A stretch of DNA of 64,000 nucleotides from an uncultured virus (IMG/VR IMGVR_UViG_3300046519_000252) (IMGVR_UViG_3300046519_000252), one strand, 5' to 3'. Shown: positions 58,830-64,000, numbered from the stretch's first letter. Numbers and translations: made by a program. The notes: generated by a model from the letters alone, not told the origin.

Positions 58830-59117
58830 CTACTGTTTGAGCAGCGGGGGTAGTACACCCTCTGCCCGCAGCTTTTTCCGCAGCGTCTTCATACGACCCA
58901 GACTCGGGATGAAGATGTGCCAGATCTCGGAGTTGTTCCCGCTGGTCTCGGTGCACTTCTGGGCGTTGGCCAGGCTGCGCGGTGTACCAGGGTGGGACTC
59001 TGCCCGCATCATCTGGGCGTCCCATATGGCGTTCAGCTTGTCGTATTTCAGCAGGCCATGCACCGCACAGACGCTTGGGTCATCTGTGGTCGTGCCCTTC
59101 AAGCGTTGATAGGTCAT
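58830..59117 (-). CDS. hypothetical protein, probably leaderless
   Basis: TAGGGT-AGATAC-ATG. Confidence 0.65.
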   Translation of the reverse strand: MTYQRLKGTTTDDPSVCAVHGLLKYDKLNAIWDAQMMRAESHPGTPRSLANAQKCTETSGNNSEIWHIFIPSLGRMKTLRKKLRAEGVLPPLLKQ

Positions 59118-59327
59118 GTATCTACCCTACTCTTTTGGTTCACGAACGATCCAGTACCCTGCGCCAGCTTGCACCTACTAGTCTCCCCGGCCTACCGTGG
59201 TTCACGTAACACGGTTCTACTCCCTGGTGTTCCAACCATCGGGCTGCAACAACGAGAGGCCCGTACGACTGCAACCCTGTTGGCGCAGGAGTCGTACAGG
59301 TCTCTCGTTGTGTTCGGGATCCAGGCG

Positions 59328-59672
59328 TCAGCAGCCCATGCAGCGGTCCCAATCGCCCTTCAGGACGCGCGGACAATGCTCGTTACAGTGCACACGGATG
59401 CGCTCCCCGTCCGGCTCCTCGTGCACGGTACAGGCGCACAGACCCTGGTCGTGGATCCGGATCAACTGTTCCGTGACCTGGTCGGCAACTCTCCGGGCCC
59501 TGTCTGCATCGCCTCCGAACGTCTCCTGAATGACCTTGGCGGACCGGTGGCTCATCCAGGTATCGACGGGTACGAGACGGTGAATCAGGGCCGCCAGTTC
59601 GCTCTGTGACAGATCGAACCGCATGCGGGGTTCGGTGACGATACGCGGGAGGTACTCGGGGTCTGATGTCAT
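59328..59672 (-). CDS. hypothetical protein, probably leaderless
   Basis: TAGGGT-AGAGAC-ATG; Cys-rich C-terminus. Confidence 0.65.
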   Translation of the reverse strand: MTSDPEYLPRIVTEPRMRFDLSQSELAALIHRLVPVDTWMSHRSAKVIQETFGGDADRARRVADQVTEQLIRIHDQGLCACTVHEEPDGERIRVHCNEHCPRVLKGDWDRCMGC

Positions 59673-60106
59673 GTCTCTACCCTAGCACGTTGAGTAGCCA
59701 GCCCCGAGAACATGGCTTGGATCAGGTCACCTGTCTCATCGGAGCTGCGGTCCAGCAACACCAGGGGATCCACCGGACCGAATAGATCGTGATAGATCAC
59801 CTGCAAGCCAAGCATTGTCGCCGGGTTCTGGGTGCGGTACCCGCTGATTCGAGGATCCGAGTTCCGACCGGCCTTCCCTTCGCGCACGTTGCAGCCCTGA
59901 CACAACAAGCCTCGAACCAGGGTCGTCCGGTGACAGTGGTCCATTACCAACCGGTCTCTCCGGTACCCGCAGAGAGCACACCGGTTGTCTTGCCAAACCG
60001 TCAGCAGCTCGCGGGCTTCTGGAAAGCCGTCCTCGGCCAGCGCTGCGACTTGTATCCGGTGATCCTCAGTGACTGCCCAGTCCCAGCAGGCCGGTTTGCC
60101 GTCCAT
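59669..60106 (-). CDS. recombination endonuclease VII-like protein
   Basis: QDNRCALCG..LVMDHCH..VRGLLCQGCN. Confidence 0.88.
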   Translation of the reverse strand: MDGKPACWDWAVTEDHRIQVAALAEDGFPEARELLTVWQDNRCALCGYRRDRLVMDHCHRTTLVRGLLCQGCNVREGKAGRNSDPRISGYRTQNPATMLGLQVIYHDLFGPVDPLVLLDRSSDETGDLIQAMFSGLATQRARVET

Positions 60107-60118
60107 CGGTAGTCCCTT

Positions 60119-60868
60119 CTAAGCGGTGAGTTTCAGGGCGTCTTGCCCCAGAGCGACCTTGCGAGCGGTAGCGGGCCACCAGCACCGTCCGCCGTGGGCG
60201 GTGGGGACCTGGTCGGCATTCAAGCCCGCTGCGATCGAGGCCCAGGTTTTTTCCCCGCCGACACGTTCTCCGATAATGCGAGCGACGACCTCGTGCGGCA
60301 GCACGGAGGGTCTGCCCAGACGAATACCGCGTGCCTTGAGAGCGGCCAGAGCCTCCCGGGTGCGGGCCTTGATGAGGTTGCGCTCCATCTCGGCGAACAC
60401 GGCTTGGATCTGAAACAACGCGATGCCTCCGGGGGTGGTGAGGTCCACTTCGCCATCGGCGGTGGCCATGGACCAACCCTCTTCCTGGCACTGGGCAGCC
60501 AGGTTGAGCAGATCCTTGGCGCTGCGGGCAAGCCGGTCCACGCGCATGAACAGGAGGACCGATGAAGGGCCCTGCTGCATACGCTGCAAACAGTTACTAA
60601 GCGCCTCTCGGTGCAGGGGAGGGATGGACCCGGAGACACCGTCGTCCACGAACCAACCGTCGTCGGGGATGTACAGGTTCTGTTTGGCGGCACGTTCTTC
60701 AATGCCTGCCTTCTGAGCTTCGAGTCCGGCACCGGATTCGACCTGTTCCTCGGTGGACACTCTCAGGTAACCCAAGGCCATAGCTTTGTCTCGATGGATG
60801 GCTGTAAGGGCTCGTCGTCTGCGTCGGGGCTTACCTGGAGGTTTGTTCGATTCGGGGTGGGTGATCAT
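60119..60868 (-). CDS. small serine recombinase (resolvase/invertase family)
   Basis: GYLRVSTEEQ, DDGVSG, RVDRLARS, FAEMERNLIKART..G..LGRP; start possibly 60781. Confidence 0.92.
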   Translation of the reverse strand: MITHPESNKPPGKPRRRRRALTAIHRDKAMALGYLRVSTEEQVESGAGLEAQKAGIEERAAKQNLYIPDDGWFVDDGVSGSIPPLHREALSNCLQRMQQGPSSVLLFMRVDRLARSAKDLLNLAAQCQEEGWSMATADGEVDLTTPGGIALFQIQAVFAEMERNLIKARTREALAALKARGIRLGRPSVLPHEVVARIIGERVGGEKTWASIAAGLNADQVPTAHGGRCWWPATARKVALGQDALKLTA

Positions 60869-61555
60869 GCGTAAACTATACGCCCCTTTGGTATACGTGA
60901 CTCGTCGTCAACTTGTACCTAATTAGGGCAGTTGTCCGAATGAGCCGACAGCTAGCTCCACCCGCTAGCACTTCCTGTACTAACGCAACTACTAACTACC
61001 TACTAGTAACTTCCAAACTAGTAGTTGCGCGTGCATGTATGTCCCCCGGGGTACGGTTGCGCGGATGACGGCGAGGGGGTTGCGGTGGTTCCGGCGAAAG
61101 ACCTTTACCTGATGTGGTTGATGCTGGGTGGTTCCTACCAGCGGGTAGCCGAGCACTACGGTCTTGCAGATCGTCACGGGGTGTACAAACGGGTGCGTCG
61201 GTATGAGGCGAAGCTGCAACGGGGTTGCGTGTGTACCGACGGGTACCGTTGCTGGTGCGGGTAGTTGCAGACAGCAAAAACCGTCCCTCCCGCGTAGGAC
61301 TCGGGAGGGACGGCGGTGGCAAGCTAGCAGGTCTCAGCGGTCGGGCGGTGTGGGGACTGGCTTCGGGTAGCCGACTTCAACATCCCCTTGGTATTGCGGG
61401 TGTTGGGATTGCGCTTGGATCTTCTGCAACCAGGCGAGGACGGCGGGGTTGGCGGCGTTGAAGCGGATGGTGAGTTCGTGTGTCATGCAGTCATGGCATC
61501 ACGGGGTTTGCCAGATTCGGGAGAAAAACAGCCCCTCCGGCCTACACTGGGACTT

Positions 61556-61705
61556 CTCCAGTTCGTACAACGGCCCGCTCCGGCGGGGACTGCTGACACC
61601 TCGCCCGGGGGCGCCCAAGTATTACCCGGCATGAGATGAATGAAGGCGGTCAGGACACCCCCTGAGGTGGGGGAGACGGGGGTTCGACTCCCCCACTGGG
61701 GACCG
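61556..61705 (+). ncRNA. tRNA-like element with a 76-nt D-loop insertion
   Basis: acceptor CTCCAGT/ACTGGGG, D-stem GTAC/GGAC, anticodon arm CCCC-CTGAGGT-GGGG, T-arm GGGGG-TTCGACT-CCCCC. Confidence 0.55.
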
Positions 61706-61866
61706 CGTTTCACTCTTACCGAACCTCGGCTAGCACAGCTCAGTGCGCTTGTTCGCATTTTCCCCAACCAGCAAGCAAGTGACGGCATATGACGTACCGT
61801 CATGCCAGAGGGACGGAACATCCTGTCTTTCGCACACCGTTTTACGACACTGGAGGAGTACCCCCT

Positions 61867-62376
61867 ATGACCACCTCTCAGACGGGGCTCATGTCGTCTG
61901 CTCTCGGTCTGCTCAACAACGACGATGCCGAGCGTGTTGCCGCTTTGGTCGTACGTGACAACGAGGGCGTCACCGACCAGGCCCAGGCTCTCGCCATCGT
62001 CGACGAGGCGCTGAAGTTCCTCAGCGCCGCCACCACGAGCAAGCCCGGCGACGGCCGCAGGCTGCGCCCCTCGCGCGTCGTCGATATGGGCTGGCACGCC
62101 CTCATCCTGCACACCGAGCTGTACATGACGCTCTGCCACAAGATCGGGCGCTACATCCACCACCGCCCCGAGGGCCCCGAGACGCTGCGTCGTGAGGCCA
62201 CCACCCTCGACATCACCCAGGCCGCGATCCGCGAGGCCGGATACGAGCCCGTCGAATACTTCTGGGGCACCAAGGGCGACACCGAGATCAAGGGTGGCGA
62301 CTGCCAACACACCGAGTGCCACCAGGACCCCGGCTGCACCGCGCCTCCCGTGGCCCAGATCGCCGTCGGCGGCTAG
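61867..62376 (+). CDS. glycine-rich-domain (DUF1399-like) protein with Cys-containing tail
   Basis: GGAGG RBS; PSRVVDMGWHALILHTELY..C..IHHRP. Confidence 0.75.
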   Translation: MTTSQTGLMSSALGLLNNDDAERVAALVVRDNEGVTDQAQALAIVDEALKFLSAATTSKPGDGRRLRPSRVVDMGWHALILHTELYMTLCHKIGRYIHHRPEGPETLRREATTLDITQAAIREAGYEPVEYFWGTKGDTEIKGGDCQHTECHQDPGCTAPPVAQIAVGG

Positions 62377-62429
62377 TCACGCCGCGTGGGAACAACGGTA
62401 CAGTGAGTCACGGTTCCTAGGAGGGGTAC

Positions 62430-62630
62430 ATGAGTGAGACCAGGTGGGTTGATCCCCGGTACGCCGAACTGGTGGACATGTTCGACAAGCTGGTTGCCCG
62501 TCGCCGCCGTCAGGGACCGGTGATGCGATGCCGCGCCTGCACTCACGGCCTCGGGGCCATAGTGATGGTCGACCTCGCAACCAAGAAGCCGATCACCCCG
62601 ATTCGCTGTGCCCGCTGTTCATCCCTGTAG
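62430..62630 (+). CDS. small zinc-finger protein
   Basis: AGGAGG RBS; CRAC..CARC. Confidence 0.6.
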   Translation: MSETRWVDPRYAELVDMFDKLVARRRRQGPVMRCRACTHGLGAIVMVDLATKKPITPIRCARCSSL

Positions 62631-62694
62631 GTGGCCTTACGCCCTCTACATCAAAAAGACCCCTCCCGCCGGATGGTCGGGAGGGGTCTTTTTG

Positions 62695-62868
62695 TCACAC
62701 GCCCGCAGGCGTCGGGGAGAACAGACGGCAGTTCAGGCAGAGCCGTCCTTCCACCCAACACTCAGGTATACAGGGCCCGTTGTGCTTGCTTGGCGGCTTG
62801 GTGGTGTAGGCCTTGGTGTTGGTCGAGCGGCAGTTACGACACTGGTGTGGGGTGGCGGGAGTACTCAT
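62695..62868 (-). CDS. small zinc-finger protein (57 aa)
   Basis: CRNC..CLNC; ends at a bidirectional terminator. Confidence 0.5.
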   Translation of the reverse strand: MSTPATPHQCRNCRSTNTKAYTTKPPSKHNGPCIPECWVEGRLCLNCRLFSPTPAGV

Positions 62869-62883
62869 GACAGGTAGTTTCCC

Positions 62884-63618
62884 CTATGACGTGGGTGGCA
62901 GGAACTGGATAATGTCGATGTCCTGGGGGAGGAACTCGGCGTTGTCGGGGAACCGTTCGCGCCACTTTGGCGGGATAGTCCCCTGGCACCACAGGTTGTT
63001 CGTGGTGACCGTGCGGCCGTCGAAAAACGTGATGCACCAGCGCCGCCCGCCAAAGCCCTTGAAGCCGTGAGACGACGTGTCGAGGCTGATGATGTAGTGC
63101 GTGTGGTCCACGACAACCCGCTGCGTCGGATCATCACCGTCGCGCACCCCGCCGGGTCCCCAGAACCAGTCGGCATGGTCCTCAGAGTCTTCGATCTGTA
63201 CGAGGGTTTGTCCATTCGGCGGCAAAGTGGCGGTGATCAGGTGGTTTGTGTTGGTTCCGTCTGCGTTTCCCTGGCTGTACATGCACCGGGCGACCGCTGT
63301 GCCGTCATCGTGATGGGTGAACAGGGGAGCCCCGCGTGAGCTGCCGTGACGCCCTTGGGGCATACGGTCTATGGTTTTCTGGACGGCTTTCCAGAGGGTG
63401 TCTTCCTCCTGCTTCTTGCTGGCGACGAACTCCAGGGTCTGGGTGCCGAGTTCTGTCATGGCGCCTTGGTTGGGGCCGGTGAGTTCCACAAGGCCTTGTG
63501 CTGCGAGGGTAGTCAGGGCTTTCTGCTCGGATGCGTTGTAGGCCGTGATCTTCCCGTGGCTGCGCTGGGCTACTTCTAGCTTCCAGCGTTCATCATGGGT
63601 GAGGTTGATGATGGTCAT
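62884..63618 (-). CDS. hypothetical phage protein
   Basis: box at 63646; GFGGR..I.FFDG..TNNLWCQGTIP. Confidence 0.7.
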   Translation of the reverse strand: MTIINLTHDERWKLEVAQRSHGKITAYNASEQKALTTLAAQGLVELTGPNQGAMTELGTQTLEFVASKKQEEDTLWKAVQKTIDRMPQGRHGSSRGAPLFTHHDDGTAVARCMYSQGNADGTNTNHLITATLPPNGQTLVQIEDSEDHADWFWGPGGVRDGDDPTQRVVVDHTHYIISLDTSSHGFKGFGGRRWCITFFDGRTVTTNNLWCQGTIPPKWRERFPDNAEFLPQDIDIIQFLPPTS

Positions 63619-63704
63619 GTAGTCCCCCAAGATTACAGATGATGTATCTACCCTAACACTAAGGGGGAGGGCCGTCAAACCCTCCCCCTAGCTCTGACCT
63701 GGGA

Positions 63705-63965
63705 TTAGTCCTCCAGGCCCGTCGCCCACGCGAACAGGGTGGCGAGGTTGACGGCGGCGACCGGCTCCCCGTCTTTCTTGAGGATGACGTGCTGTTCCAC
63801 GGTGACGGAACGGGTCGCGTCGGCGGGCCAGAATCCCGCGTTGTCGAACGAGGTGCCGTGGGTGAGGGCCGTGACCTCCTGCTCATCCGGCTCGTGCCAG
63901 TCGGGGCGGACGCCAAGGGTGTTGGCGAGGGCAACCAGCTGGGCCTTTGTGGTGATGCGCTGCAT
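63705..63965 (-). CDS. cassette hypothetical protein
   Basis: box at 63992 plus GAGGAG. Confidence 0.75.
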   Translation of the reverse strand: MQRITTKAQLVALANTLGVRPDWHEPDEQEVTALTHGTSFDNAGFWPADATRSVTVEQHVILKKDGEPVAAVNLATLFAWATGLED

Positions 63966-64000
63966 GGGAATCTCCTCGGTGGTGGGTATATATCTACCCT

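What the first reader, a model, noticed from the sequence alone, without database searches (positions are those of the whole stretch)
61543..61706. Split tRNA-like RNA: a cloverleaf with a 76-nt structured insert in the D-loop
Seen: removing 61574-61649 (CGG is repeated at the junctions) leaves CTCCAGT TC GTAC AACGGTCA GGAC A CCCC CTGAGGT GGGG GAGAC GGGGG TTCGACT CCCCC ACTGGGG A CCG. That gives a 7-bp acceptor stem, D-stem, canonical T-arm and a 4-bp anticodon stem with loop CU-GAG-GU, ending in CCG instead of CCA. A TACACT -10 (61543-61548) would start transcription close to the 5' end. The insert has its own stems (CCCGC-TCCG-GCGGG; CCGGG/CCCGG). An alternative helix GCGGTC/GACCGC (61646/61701) competes with the acceptor stem. 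Established: known bacterial tRNA introns are self-splicing group I/II introns, much longer than this and mostly in the anticodon loop. Inference: a tRNA-mimic ncRNA, a decoy for anticodon nucleases, a processed split tRNA, or a switchable leader for the 61867 gene.
Basis: partly seen in the sequence, partly recalled or inferred. Interest (0 to 1): 0.7.

Follow-up and report, generated by a model that had tools for sequence, protein, structure and literature searches.

The report
Phage tRNA look-alike with D-loop insert
An uncultured Streptomyces-type phage carries a tRNA-derived sequence that is split by 76 extra bases in its D-loop and cannot read codons; it sits at the start of a gene's leader, and the data cannot show whether it is a dead tRNA gene or a working tRNA mimic.

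Summary
Removing 61574-61649 leaves a cloverleaf that ARAGORN calls a 73-nt tRNA. The native sequence is not called, and Rfam gives no hit at gathering scores.

The 3' part is specifically tRNA-like: 534 of 4085 joins were called, against at most 4 for each of 149 random pieces. ARAGORN cannot judge the 5' half, because shuffled upstream DNA also gives calls. A score built from textbook tRNA invariants can. 61556-61575 scores 15 of 16, reached by 11 of 5000 shuffles and by no other 20-mer in the window. That score was chosen after seeing the sequence.

I conclude it is tRNA-derived (Glu/Asp-like, not firm) and non-decoding. It lies directly downstream of a -10-like hexamer, in the about 310-nt structured leader of a PF27765 gene. 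Its 5' strand can also pair with that gene's Shine-Dalgarno sequence.

Only near-identical copies exist, and no RNA data were found. No covariation test is therefore possible, and relic versus mimic stays open. The scan met this sequence before on other DNA (e1-6057903).

The parts
61543..61548 (+). -10-like hexamer TACACT; it would place the transcript start at about 61554-61556
   Evidence: Read. The sister contig has TATACT at the matching place although the flanks have diverged. The consensus scan found no sigma-70-type promoter and the motif is not repeated in the window. The promoter is therefore inferred.
61556..61562 (+). Acceptor-stem 5' strand (positions 1-7)
   Evidence: Pairs 7 of 7 (one G-U) with 61695-61701. 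The sister contig has a C/U swap at positions 2 and 3 that still pairs (by reading). Pairing probability is 0.63-0.87 in an RNA ending at 61706.
61563..61573 (+). U8, C9, D-stem 5' strand (61565-61568) and D-loop start with A14, A15 and GG
   Evidence: The invariant score is 15 of 16, reached by 11 of 5000 shuffles.
61574..61649 (+). 76-nt insert in the D-loop, with two hairpins (61574-61587; 61605-61629) and CGG repeated at both junctions
   Evidence: No other copy exists in the window or in three related virus records.
61650..61657 (+). D-loop end, D-stem 3' strand (61653-61656) and position 26
   Evidence: The hexamer CAGGAC occurs in 1 of 59 distinct Streptomyces tRNAs, the Glu(ttc) one.
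61658..61673 (+). Anticodon-arm-like hairpin: either a 5-bp G-C stem with a 6-nt loop, or a 4-bp stem plus an A.G mismatch with a 7-nt loop that reads GAG
61674..61677 (+). 4-nt variable region
   Evidence: alignment to the model.
61678..61694 (+). T-arm: 5 G-C pairs and a TTCGACT loop
   Evidence: (13.5 bits to RF00005 positions 43-63).
61695..61705 (+). Acceptor 3' strand (61695-61701), discriminator A (61702) and CCG (61703-61705)
61646..61706 (+). Competing long hairpin: closing helix 61646-61651 / 61701-61706 and inner helix 61666-61675 / 61688-61697
   Evidence: MFE is -38.5 kcal/mol, z = -2.21. Pair probabilities are 0.9-1.0 in the full leader.
61553..61562 (+). Anti-Shine-Dalgarno segment; it overlaps the acceptor 5' strand
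   Evidence: Pairs with 61849-61858 at probability 0.98-1.0. The fold of 61549-61870 has z = -4.76.
61849..61859 (+). Shine-Dalgarno region (GGAGGAG at 61853-61859) of the downstream gene
61867..62376 (+). Downstream gene, 169 aa, family PF27765 (UCP032817-like), function unknown
   Evidence: No fold match was found.
61031..61534 (.). Variable cassette that abuts the element. In the sister contig a different 783-nt cassette takes its place.

Best explanation
61556-61705 descends from a class-I tRNA gene of the kind carried by large Streptomyces phages. All four arms and the tertiary-contact bases are there (U8, A14, G18-G19, T54-T55-C56, A58). Two changes disable it as a decoder: 76 bases forming two hairpins sit in the D-loop, and the anticodon loop is non-standard.

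I think it most likely a disabled tRNA gene, that is, an insertion pseudogene. It would be transcribed from the -10-like hexamer at 61543-61548 as the first 150 nt of the about 310-nt leader of gene 61867. In that leader its former acceptor 5' strand pairs with the Shine-Dalgarno sequence, and its 3' half refolds into a long hairpin.

Shown: the sequence anatomy, the tRNA-likeness of both halves, and the lack of a normal anticodon loop. Inferred: the transcription start, co-transcription with the gene, and loss of function.

My confidence that it is tRNA-derived with an insert is about 0.8. The figure given here is for the full statement, including 'relic'.
For: - The joined form is called a tRNA.
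- The 3' part is far more tRNA-like than random pieces: 534 of 4085 joins called, against at most 4 per piece (2 of 149 pieces gave any call).
- The 5' half scores 15 of 16 on textbook invariants, p about 0.002.
- It is the only non-tRNA hit of a tRNA model at E<=1 in 92 kb (18.6 bits).
- The related phage contig carries a real tRNA (56.8 bits).
- The best BLAST matches in phage records are tRNA-Val genes of about 131-kb Streptomyces phages (28 nt, 89%, E 0.4).
- For 'relic': the native sequence fails ARAGORN and Rfam. The anticodon loop has 6 nt behind a 5-bp stem. The CGG repeat at both junctions fits an insertion event.
- An engineered aptamer inserted in the D-loop of E. coli tRNA-Tyr was not detectable by Northern, while a V-loop insertion was stable (PMC5397188, passages read).
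- In the full leader the cloverleaf-enforced fold is 17.2 kcal/mol (window) or 14.2 kcal/mol (sister contig) above the MFE.
Against: - Every stem is intact. The only flaw is one A.G mismatch in the D-stem. A long-dead gene should have decayed further, although a recent insertion would look the same.
- The two changes in the sister contig's acceptor 5' strand both keep pairing.
- Phages tend to lose useless DNA, yet 150 nt are kept at a promoter.
- In an RNA that ends at 61706 the cloverleaf-type fold is the MFE, with acceptor helix probability up to 0.87.
- ARAGORN's own scoring gives the 5' half no support.
- The invariant score was chosen after seeing the sequence.
- The tRNA type is not firm. 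The D side is nearest Glu(ttc) and the 3' side nearest Asp.
Confidence: 0.45

Rival explanations
1. It is a working, non-decoding tRNA mimic at the 5' end of the mRNA. The element folds first, during transcription, into an L-shape whose elbow is intact. It is then recognised by tRNA-handling proteins such as RNase Z, RNase P, the CCA-adding enzyme or a tRNA-targeting defence nuclease. It either is cut off as a small RNA or toggles with the long-hairpin / anti-Shine-Dalgarno fold to set expression of gene 61867.
For: - All stems and elbow bases are intact.
- The cloverleaf-type fold is the MFE for an RNA ending at 61706.
- The same 5' strand can pair with the acceptor 3' strand or with the Shine-Dalgarno region.
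- The leader as a whole is unusually structured (z = -4.76).
- The alternative 3' hairpin (-22.1 kcal/mol) is stronger than in all 47 class-I Streptomyces tRNAs tested (mean -12.0, lowest -20.0).
- The acceptor changes in the sister contig keep pairing.
Against: - No RNA data were found, and no diverged relatives.
- When the cloverleaf is enforced, the Shine-Dalgarno sequence is still paired, to a second segment near 61711-61716, so no clear on/off logic emerges.
- The cloverleaf is 14-17 kcal/mol less stable in the full leader.
- The 71%-identical homologue of the gene and 80 Streptomyces homologues have no such leader.
- An engineered D-loop insertion made a tRNA undetectable in E. coli (PMC5397188).
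Confidence: 0.3
2. Only the 3' part (about 61650-61705) is tRNA-derived. It would be a truncated tRNA gene or an attachment-site-type copy of a tRNA 3' end, and the upstream 5' strand fits by chance.
For: - ARAGORN calls a tRNA from some join in 200 of 200 shuffled upstreams, and in 164 of 200 at the 110% threshold.
- 20 distinct 5' starts in the real upstream are accepted.
- The covariance model prefers another 5' strand at 61624, with 5 of 7 pairs.
- The break in near-identity with the sister contig falls at 61558/61559, inside the proposed acceptor strand.
- A recombinase gene lies 700 nt away.
Against: - The invariant score singles out 61556: 15 of 16, 11 of 5000 shuffles, and unique among 127,960 20-mers.
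- No genome of 185,579 species holds the T-arm plus acceptor sequence.
- BLAST against 5 Streptomyces genomes hit no tRNA; 0 of the 8 best loci held one.
- No tyrosine integrase was found among 94 window ORFs scanned. The nearby recombinase is a small serine invertase type.
Confidence: 0.15
3. It is not tRNA-derived at all. It would be a G+C-rich palindromic hairpin (61646-61706) serving as a terminator, attenuator or protein-binding site in a divergent control region, which happens to contain a T-loop-like motif.
For: - The long hairpin is the predicted fold in the full leader.
- GGTTCGANTCC alone is expected 0.16 times per window, and 15 of 100 shuffles have at least one.
- RF00005 scores only the T-arm (13.5 bits, E 0.32).
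- The fold of 61549-61720 alone is not unusual (z = +0.21).
Against: Three independent tRNA-like features occur together: the 3' piece under ARAGORN's criteria, the covariance-model hit and the matching 5' half with its invariants. No T-run follows the hairpin.
Confidence: 0.07
4. It is an intron-containing tRNA that is spliced to a functional 73-nt tRNA.
For: The joined form passes ARAGORN, and CGG is repeated at the junctions.
Against: - At 76 nt the insert is far below group I size, and no intron family matches.
- The position is in the D-loop.
- Even when joined, the anticodon arm is abnormal, and a Leu anticodon on a short-variable-arm body of Glu/Asp type has no matching identity set (identity rules recalled).
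Confidence: 0.03

Closest known systems
Canonical class-I tRNAs of Streptomyces and of large Streptomyces phages (Rfam RF00005); nearest types are tRNA-Glu(UUC/CUC) and tRNA-Asp
   Same: 7-bp acceptor stem, U8, G10, A14, R15, G18-G19, a 4-nt variable region, a 5-bp T-stem with a TTCGA-type loop, and discriminator A. Of 59 distinct tRNAs from one Streptomyces genome, the two tRNA-Glu align best to the joined form (score 8; next 7 and 5). CAGGAC occurs only in Glu(ttc).
   Different: 76 extra bases in the D-loop, a 6-nt (or mismatched 7-nt) anticodon loop without a Glu or Asp anticodon, C1-G72, and CCG instead of CCA. It scores 18.6 bits where real tRNAs score 49-72 bits on the same model, and it fails the Rfam and ARAGORN thresholds. 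The 3' side aligns better to Asp than to Glu.
tRNA pseudogenes and fragments in phage tRNA regions and beside integration sites
   Same: A tRNA-derived sequence that cannot make a working tRNA, in a phage lineage that also has a real tRNA. Streptomyces phage NootNoot has an unannotated T-arm-like stretch between annotated tRNAs.
   Different: This one is a complete body with an internal insertion, not a truncated copy. It has no intact tRNA neighbour in the window, no match to any host tRNA 3' end and no tyrosine integrase nearby.
tmRNA and bacterial Y RNA (YrlA): natural RNAs with a tRNA-like module plus a large extra domain (architectures recalled, not tested beyond Rfam and ARAGORN)
   Same: Acceptor and T-arm elements are combined with a large non-tRNA insertion, and the RNA does not decode.
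   Different: No match to these families. Here the extra RNA sits in the D-loop, and an anticodon-arm-like hairpin is kept. No Ro-type (TROVE) family was found among 94 ORFs scanned.
tRNA-like leader elements that control translation, such as the E. coli thrS operator and actinobacterial translational T-boxes (recalled)
   Same: A tRNA-related structure lies in a 5' leader whose Shine-Dalgarno sequence is sequestered by pairing.
   Different: Those elements mimic or bind an anticodon arm and are tied to a synthetase gene. Here the gene is of unknown function, no T-box was found even at the loose E<=10 scan of 61300-61900, and no conservation supports a switch.
Engineered tRNA with an aptamer in the D-loop (D-Spinach tRNA-Tyr, PMC5397188)
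   Same: A structured insert of about 100 nt in the D-loop, between positions 16 and 18.
   Different: It is artificial, and the construct was not detectable in E. coli while the V-loop version was stable (passages read). This is an argument that the natural element is not a stable tRNA.

Membership tests
tRNA (RF00005) | 7-bp acceptor stem, discriminator base and 3' end | tested here: met
   61556-61562 pairs with 61695-61701 at 7 of 7 positions (one G-U), then A and CCG. The sister contig variant also pairs.
tRNA (RF00005) | Contiguous D-arm with a D-loop of about 7-11 nt | tested here: not met
   The D-loop holds 76 extra bases (61574-61649). Only after their removal is the D-arm normal, with 3 of 4 stem pairs, A14, A15, GG and A21.
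tRNA (RF00005) | 5-bp anticodon stem closing a 7-nt loop with U33 | tested here: not met
   It is either a 5-bp stem with a 6-nt loop, or a 4-bp stem plus an A.G mismatch with a 7-nt loop.
tRNA (RF00005) | T-arm: 5 bp and a loop with T54 T55 C56 R57 A58 | tested here: met
   61678-61694.
tRNA (RF00005) | Score above the family's curated threshold, or a default tRNA-finder call, on the native sequence | tested here: not met
   No Rfam hit at gathering score. RF00005 gives 13.5 bits against a cut-off of 29. ARAGORN finds 0 genes in the window.
tRNA with a self-splicing (group I/II) intron | Intron with a catalytic core, usually over 200 nt and in the anticodon loop | tested here: not met
   The insert is 76 nt and in the D-loop. 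No intron family matched at gathering score or at E<=10.
tRNA with an archaeal-type (bulge-helix-bulge) intron | Bulge-helix-bulge motif at both junctions and a splicing endonuclease in the host | not tested
   I did not search for the motif. A bacterial host for such splicing is not known (recalled).
Attachment-site copy of a host tRNA 3' end | Identity to the 3' end of a host tRNA gene | tested here: not met
   The T-arm plus acceptor pattern had 0 matches in one genome each of 185,579 species. BLAST against 5 Streptomyces genomes gave no tRNA among the 8 best loci.
Attachment-site copy of a host tRNA 3' end | An adjacent integrase that uses tRNA sites (tyrosine recombinase) | tested here: not met
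   None among 94 window ORFs scanned. There is only a 249-aa resolvase/invertase-type serine recombinase at 60119-60868. The rest of the genome of at least 130 kb was not seen.
tmRNA | tRNA-like ends plus a tag reading frame | tested here: not met
   ARAGORN's tmRNA search found none in the window or the joined form. No Rfam hit.
T-box leader | Stem I specifier and the T-box sequence (RF00230) | tested here: inconclusive
   No T-box match even at E<=10 in 61300-61900. A divergent form cannot be excluded by this test alone.

The most novel reading that the evidence does not exclude
A phage makes a non-decoding tRNA mimic with an enlarged D-loop as the first module of an mRNA. The module folds into an L-shape during transcription and engages tRNA-processing enzymes or a tRNA-targeting host defence. 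It alternates with a long-hairpin / anti-Shine-Dalgarno fold, so that binding or cutting of the mimic sets expression of the downstream PF27765 gene.
Probability: 0.2. Interest if true: 0.75.

Novelty: new variant of a known kind. Interest (0 to 1): 0.42.

Why it matters
If it is a relic, it is a clear example of how a phage tRNA gene dies, by insertion into the D-loop, and is then carried as part of an mRNA leader. That matters mainly for annotation: tRNA finders miss it and it could be mistaken for a regulatory RNA.

If it is functional, it would be a natural tRNA-shaped RNA with a large D-loop domain. tmRNA and Y RNAs do not have that architecture. It would bear on how phages use tRNA mimicry in gene control or against tRNA-targeting defences. 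One northern blot or RNA-seq experiment would decide between the two.

Tried and rejected
Searches for relatives that found only near-identical copies or nothing:
- The phage collection, near and distant modes.
- An exact pattern and a stem-degenerate pattern in viral contigs; both found only the same sister contig.
- The degenerate pattern in metagenome contigs: 0 matches.
- The downstream protein in metagenome contigs: 0 relatives.
- The downstream protein in viral contigs: one 71% homologue, whose upstream region is unrelated.
- 80 Streptomyces loci encoding homologues: no similar leader (best BLAST E 0.96) and no tRNA upstream.

Sequencing runs:
- No RNA holder was listed.
- Contigs of four rhizosphere DNA runs showed no variant in the element. 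Coverage was fragmentary.

Other dead ends:
- The window's own genome is not held.
- The insert is not a repeat. Short matches elsewhere lie inside a coding region.
- Two motif searches for tRNA-Glu in a Streptomyces genome found nothing. I then fetched its tRNAs through RF00005 instead.
- One search used a wrong D-stem strand and is superseded.
- The covariance model made from 8 tRNA-Glu sequences is not Glu-specific: Val and 'Leu' tRNAs score 49-51 bits. It therefore cannot assign the type.
- Function of the downstream protein: Pfam and PHROGs gave no hit in the held copies, Foldseek's best E was 0.76, and VIA-align's best Z was 3.2.
- A repeated promoter motif was not found (the spacing was wrong).
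- ORFs across the region (61640-61792 and 61449-61634) are probably not genes. The first has third-position G+C of about 60% by my hand count, against 72-96% for the ORFs accepted.

Full report
**Context**

The window has about 63% G+C. It encodes an SNF2 helicase, a family A DNA polymerase, ThyX, a PD-(D/E)XK nuclease, a pectate-lyase-type tail fibre and a GH25 endolysin, so it is part of a phage genome. The polymerase is 40% identical to those of Streptomyces phages. The gene next to the finding has 60-68%-identical homologues in Streptomyces chromosomes, and the DNA occurs in rhizosphere metagenomes. One protein of the window is on record on a contig of 130,305 bases, so this is probably a large phage of a Streptomyces-like host. 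The window's own assembly is not held.

**The observation**

ARAGORN finds no tRNA in the native window and Rfam gives nothing at gathering scores. A loose scan of 61300-61900 gives only chance-level rows, among them a viral tRNA-like family at 14.2 bits, E 2.2. With 61574-61649 removed inside a script, ARAGORN calls a 73-nt tRNA-Leu(gag) at default settings.

**Is it more than chance? The 3' part**

- I joined every 26-nt upstream piece from 61400-61639 to 3' pieces starting at 61640-61658. ARAGORN called 534 of 4085 joins.
- I did the same with 149 random 73-nt pieces from elsewhere in the window. Only 2 gave any call, with at most 4 calls each.
- A covariance model built from 8 tRNA-Glu sequences scores the element 18.6 bits: E 0.0004 in 2.2 kb with filters off, and 0.016 in 92 kb. 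It is the only hit at E<=1 that is not a real tRNA.
- The 3' part is therefore specifically tRNA-like. It scores far below real tRNAs, which get 49-72 bits on the same model.

**Is it more than chance? The 5' half**

My first control argued against the 5' half.
- 20 different 5' starts in the real upstream were accepted.
- All 200 dinucleotide shuffles of the upstream gave at least one call at default, and 164 of 200 did so at the 110% threshold.
- At 111-112% the only surviving join uses a start at 61535, not 61556.

I then saw that this only shows ARAGORN accepts almost any 5' half once the 3' half is strong. So I scored each 20-mer for what textbooks require of a tRNA 5' half that matches this particular 3' half:
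- seven acceptor pairs to 61695-61701;
- U8 and G10;
- four D-stem pairs to 61653-61656;
- A14, R15 and a GG.

The site at 61556 scores 15 of 16 and the next best in the upstream scores 11. Eleven of 5000 shuffles reach 15, and no other 20-mer among 127,960 in the window does. One search used a wrong D strand and is superseded. This score was defined after I had seen the sequence, so p of about 0.002 is generous. I still take the 5' half as real, with about 0.8 confidence that the whole is a tRNA body with an insert.

Note e1-6057903, on the same sequence in other DNA, read it as a glutamate-type tRNA with a D-loop insert. That note made me run these tests. I fetched the tRNAs of a complete Streptomyces genome: 70 RF00005 matches, and 59 distinct ARAGORN sequences in the loci I fetched.
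- The joined form aligns best to Glu(ttc) and Glu(ctc), both at score 8. Then come a Leu(tag) at 7 and Asp at 5.
- The D side alone is nearest Glu(ttc), 7 against 5. CAGGAC occurs only in Glu(ttc).
- The 3' side alone is nearest Asp, at 13.

The Glu call is thus only partly reproduced; Glu/Asp-like is as far as the data go. The best BLAST matches in phage records are tRNA-Val genes of about 131-kb Streptomyces phages: 28 nt, 89%, E 0.4.

**It cannot decode**

With the normal 5-bp stem (61658-61662 / 61669-61673) the loop has six bases. With ARAGORN's 4-bp stem plus an A.G mismatch, the anticodon is GAG, a Leu anticodon on a body of Glu/Asp type. The 76 extra bases sit where the D-loop meets the T-loop. 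In E. coli, an aptamer placed between C16 and G18 of tRNA-Tyr gave no detectable RNA, while the same aptamer in the variable loop was stable (PMC5397188, passages read).

**Surroundings**

A sister contig (IMG/VR, 76 kb) is 99.4% identical over 58954-61030 and 99.7% over 61535-64000, but it has a different cassette in between: 783 nt against 504 nt. The cassettes hold different small leftward genes.
- Between 61535 and 61558 the two contigs are similar but diverged. Both keep a TAnACT hexamer 10-11 nt before the shared sequence.
- Metagenome contigs also break at 61559.
- The sister contig's acceptor 5' strand differs by a C/U swap at positions 2 and 3. Both versions pair with the four G's of the 3' strand (by reading).
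- A promoter at 61543-61548 would start the RNA at or next to tRNA position 1. This is inferred only: the consensus scan found no promoter and the motif does not recur in the window.
- No terminator follows the element. It would therefore be the head of the leader of gene 61867.

**Folding**

- The region 61549-61870 is unusually structured: -141.5 kcal/mol, z = -4.76, matched by 0 of 100 shuffles.
- In 61549-61880, 61553-61562 pairs with the Shine-Dalgarno region 61849-61858 at probability 0.98-1.0, and 61646-61706 forms a long hairpin at 0.9-1.0.
- In an RNA that ends at 61706 the cloverleaf-type fold is the MFE, with the acceptor helix at 0.63-0.87 and the T-arm at 0.62. Fourteen more bases tip it to the hairpin.
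- Enforcing the cloverleaf in the full leader costs 17.2 kcal/mol (14.2 in the sister version). The Shine-Dalgarno sequence is then still paired, to a second segment.
- The alternative hairpin of the 3' 40 nt (-22.1 kcal/mol) is stronger than in any of 47 class-I Streptomyces tRNAs, whose mean is -12.0, sd 3.2, lowest -20.0.

This is compatible with a two-state leader but does not show one.

**What it is not**

- Not an attachment-site copy. No genome of 185,579 species holds the T-arm plus acceptor sequence. Five Streptomyces genomes give no tRNA match. Among 94 ORFs scanned there is no tyrosine integrase, only a 249-aa serine invertase-type recombinase at 60119-60868.
- Not a mobile repeat.
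- Not a group I/II intron, a tmRNA or a recognisable T-box.

**Downstream gene**

The product has 169 aa and belongs to PF27765 (UCP032817-like), a family common in Streptomyces. The model has pLDDT 80 and is helical. It has no fold match: Foldseek's best E is 0.76 and VIA-align's best Z is 3.2. The gene's function therefore gives no clue to the leader.

**Verdict**

The element is real and tRNA-derived, it cannot decode, and it is unique to one phage lineage. I put 'disabled tRNA gene carried in a leader' at 0.45 and 'working mimic or switch' at 0.30. 'Only the 3' part is tRNA-derived' gets 0.15, and the two remaining readings get 0.07 and 0.03. All copies found are identical and no RNA run is listed.

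Noticed in passing
window 61031-61534 versus L004 2078-2860: Between the serine recombinase gene and the element, two otherwise 99.4-99.7% identical phage contigs carry unrelated cassettes. The window has a 50-aa leftward gene plus about 300 nt with no convincing ORF. The sister contig has two leftward genes of 116 and 97 aa. Each cassette ends in its own terminator hairpin and its own TAnACT hexamer.
   Followed up: partly
window 61055-61241: Several direct repeats built around GGTTGCG (families D1-D3) lie in the stretch with no convincing ORF. They could be binding sites (iterons or operators), or chance in G+C-rich DNA.
   Followed up: no
L007 1500-1575 (-), in the sister contig, 26 kb beyond the element: A real tRNA (56.8 bits to RF00005) of 76 nt that ARAGORN reads as Leu(caa) although it has a short variable arm. 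Streptomyces phage NootNoot likewise annotates a 76-nt tRNA-Leu(tag) (L092 690-765). Leu anticodons on class-I bodies seem to recur in these phages.
   Followed up: partly
L092 about 585-615 (Streptomyces phage NootNoot): An unannotated T-arm-like stretch (a 5-bp stem around a TTCGAAT loop) lies between the annotated tRNA-Val and tRNA-Leu genes. It may be another tRNA remnant in a large Streptomyces phage.
   Followed up: no
L016, L024, L046, L076, L079, L080, L083, L086: In 8 of 80 Streptomyces loci, a tRNA gene (Arg-cct, Lys-ttt, Val-tac or Leu-gag) lies 0.4-1.3 kb downstream of the PF27765 homologue on the opposite strand. This suggests that these homologues often sit at the edge of integrated elements.
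   Followed up: no
window 62652-62694: A 43-nt imperfect palindrome lies between the convergent genes 62430-62630 (+) and 62884-63678 (-). It is probably a two-way terminator.
   Followed up: no
window 61281-61313: A strong hairpin (15-nt arms, 93% complementary) with a T-run on the minus strand. It is a terminator-like site for the leftward 50-aa gene.
   Followed up: no
window 61867-62376: The PF27765 (UCP032817-like) protein gives a confident helical model (pLDDT 80) with invariant His, Cys and Trp positions, but has no match to any solved fold (best Z 3.2). It is a common Streptomyces family of unknown function that this phage carries.
   Followed up: partly
window 59669-60868 (-): An endonuclease VII gene and a 249-aa resolvase/invertase-type serine recombinase gene lie side by side, just left of the variable cassette. 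I found no inverted repeats that would mark an invertible segment.
   Followed up: partly
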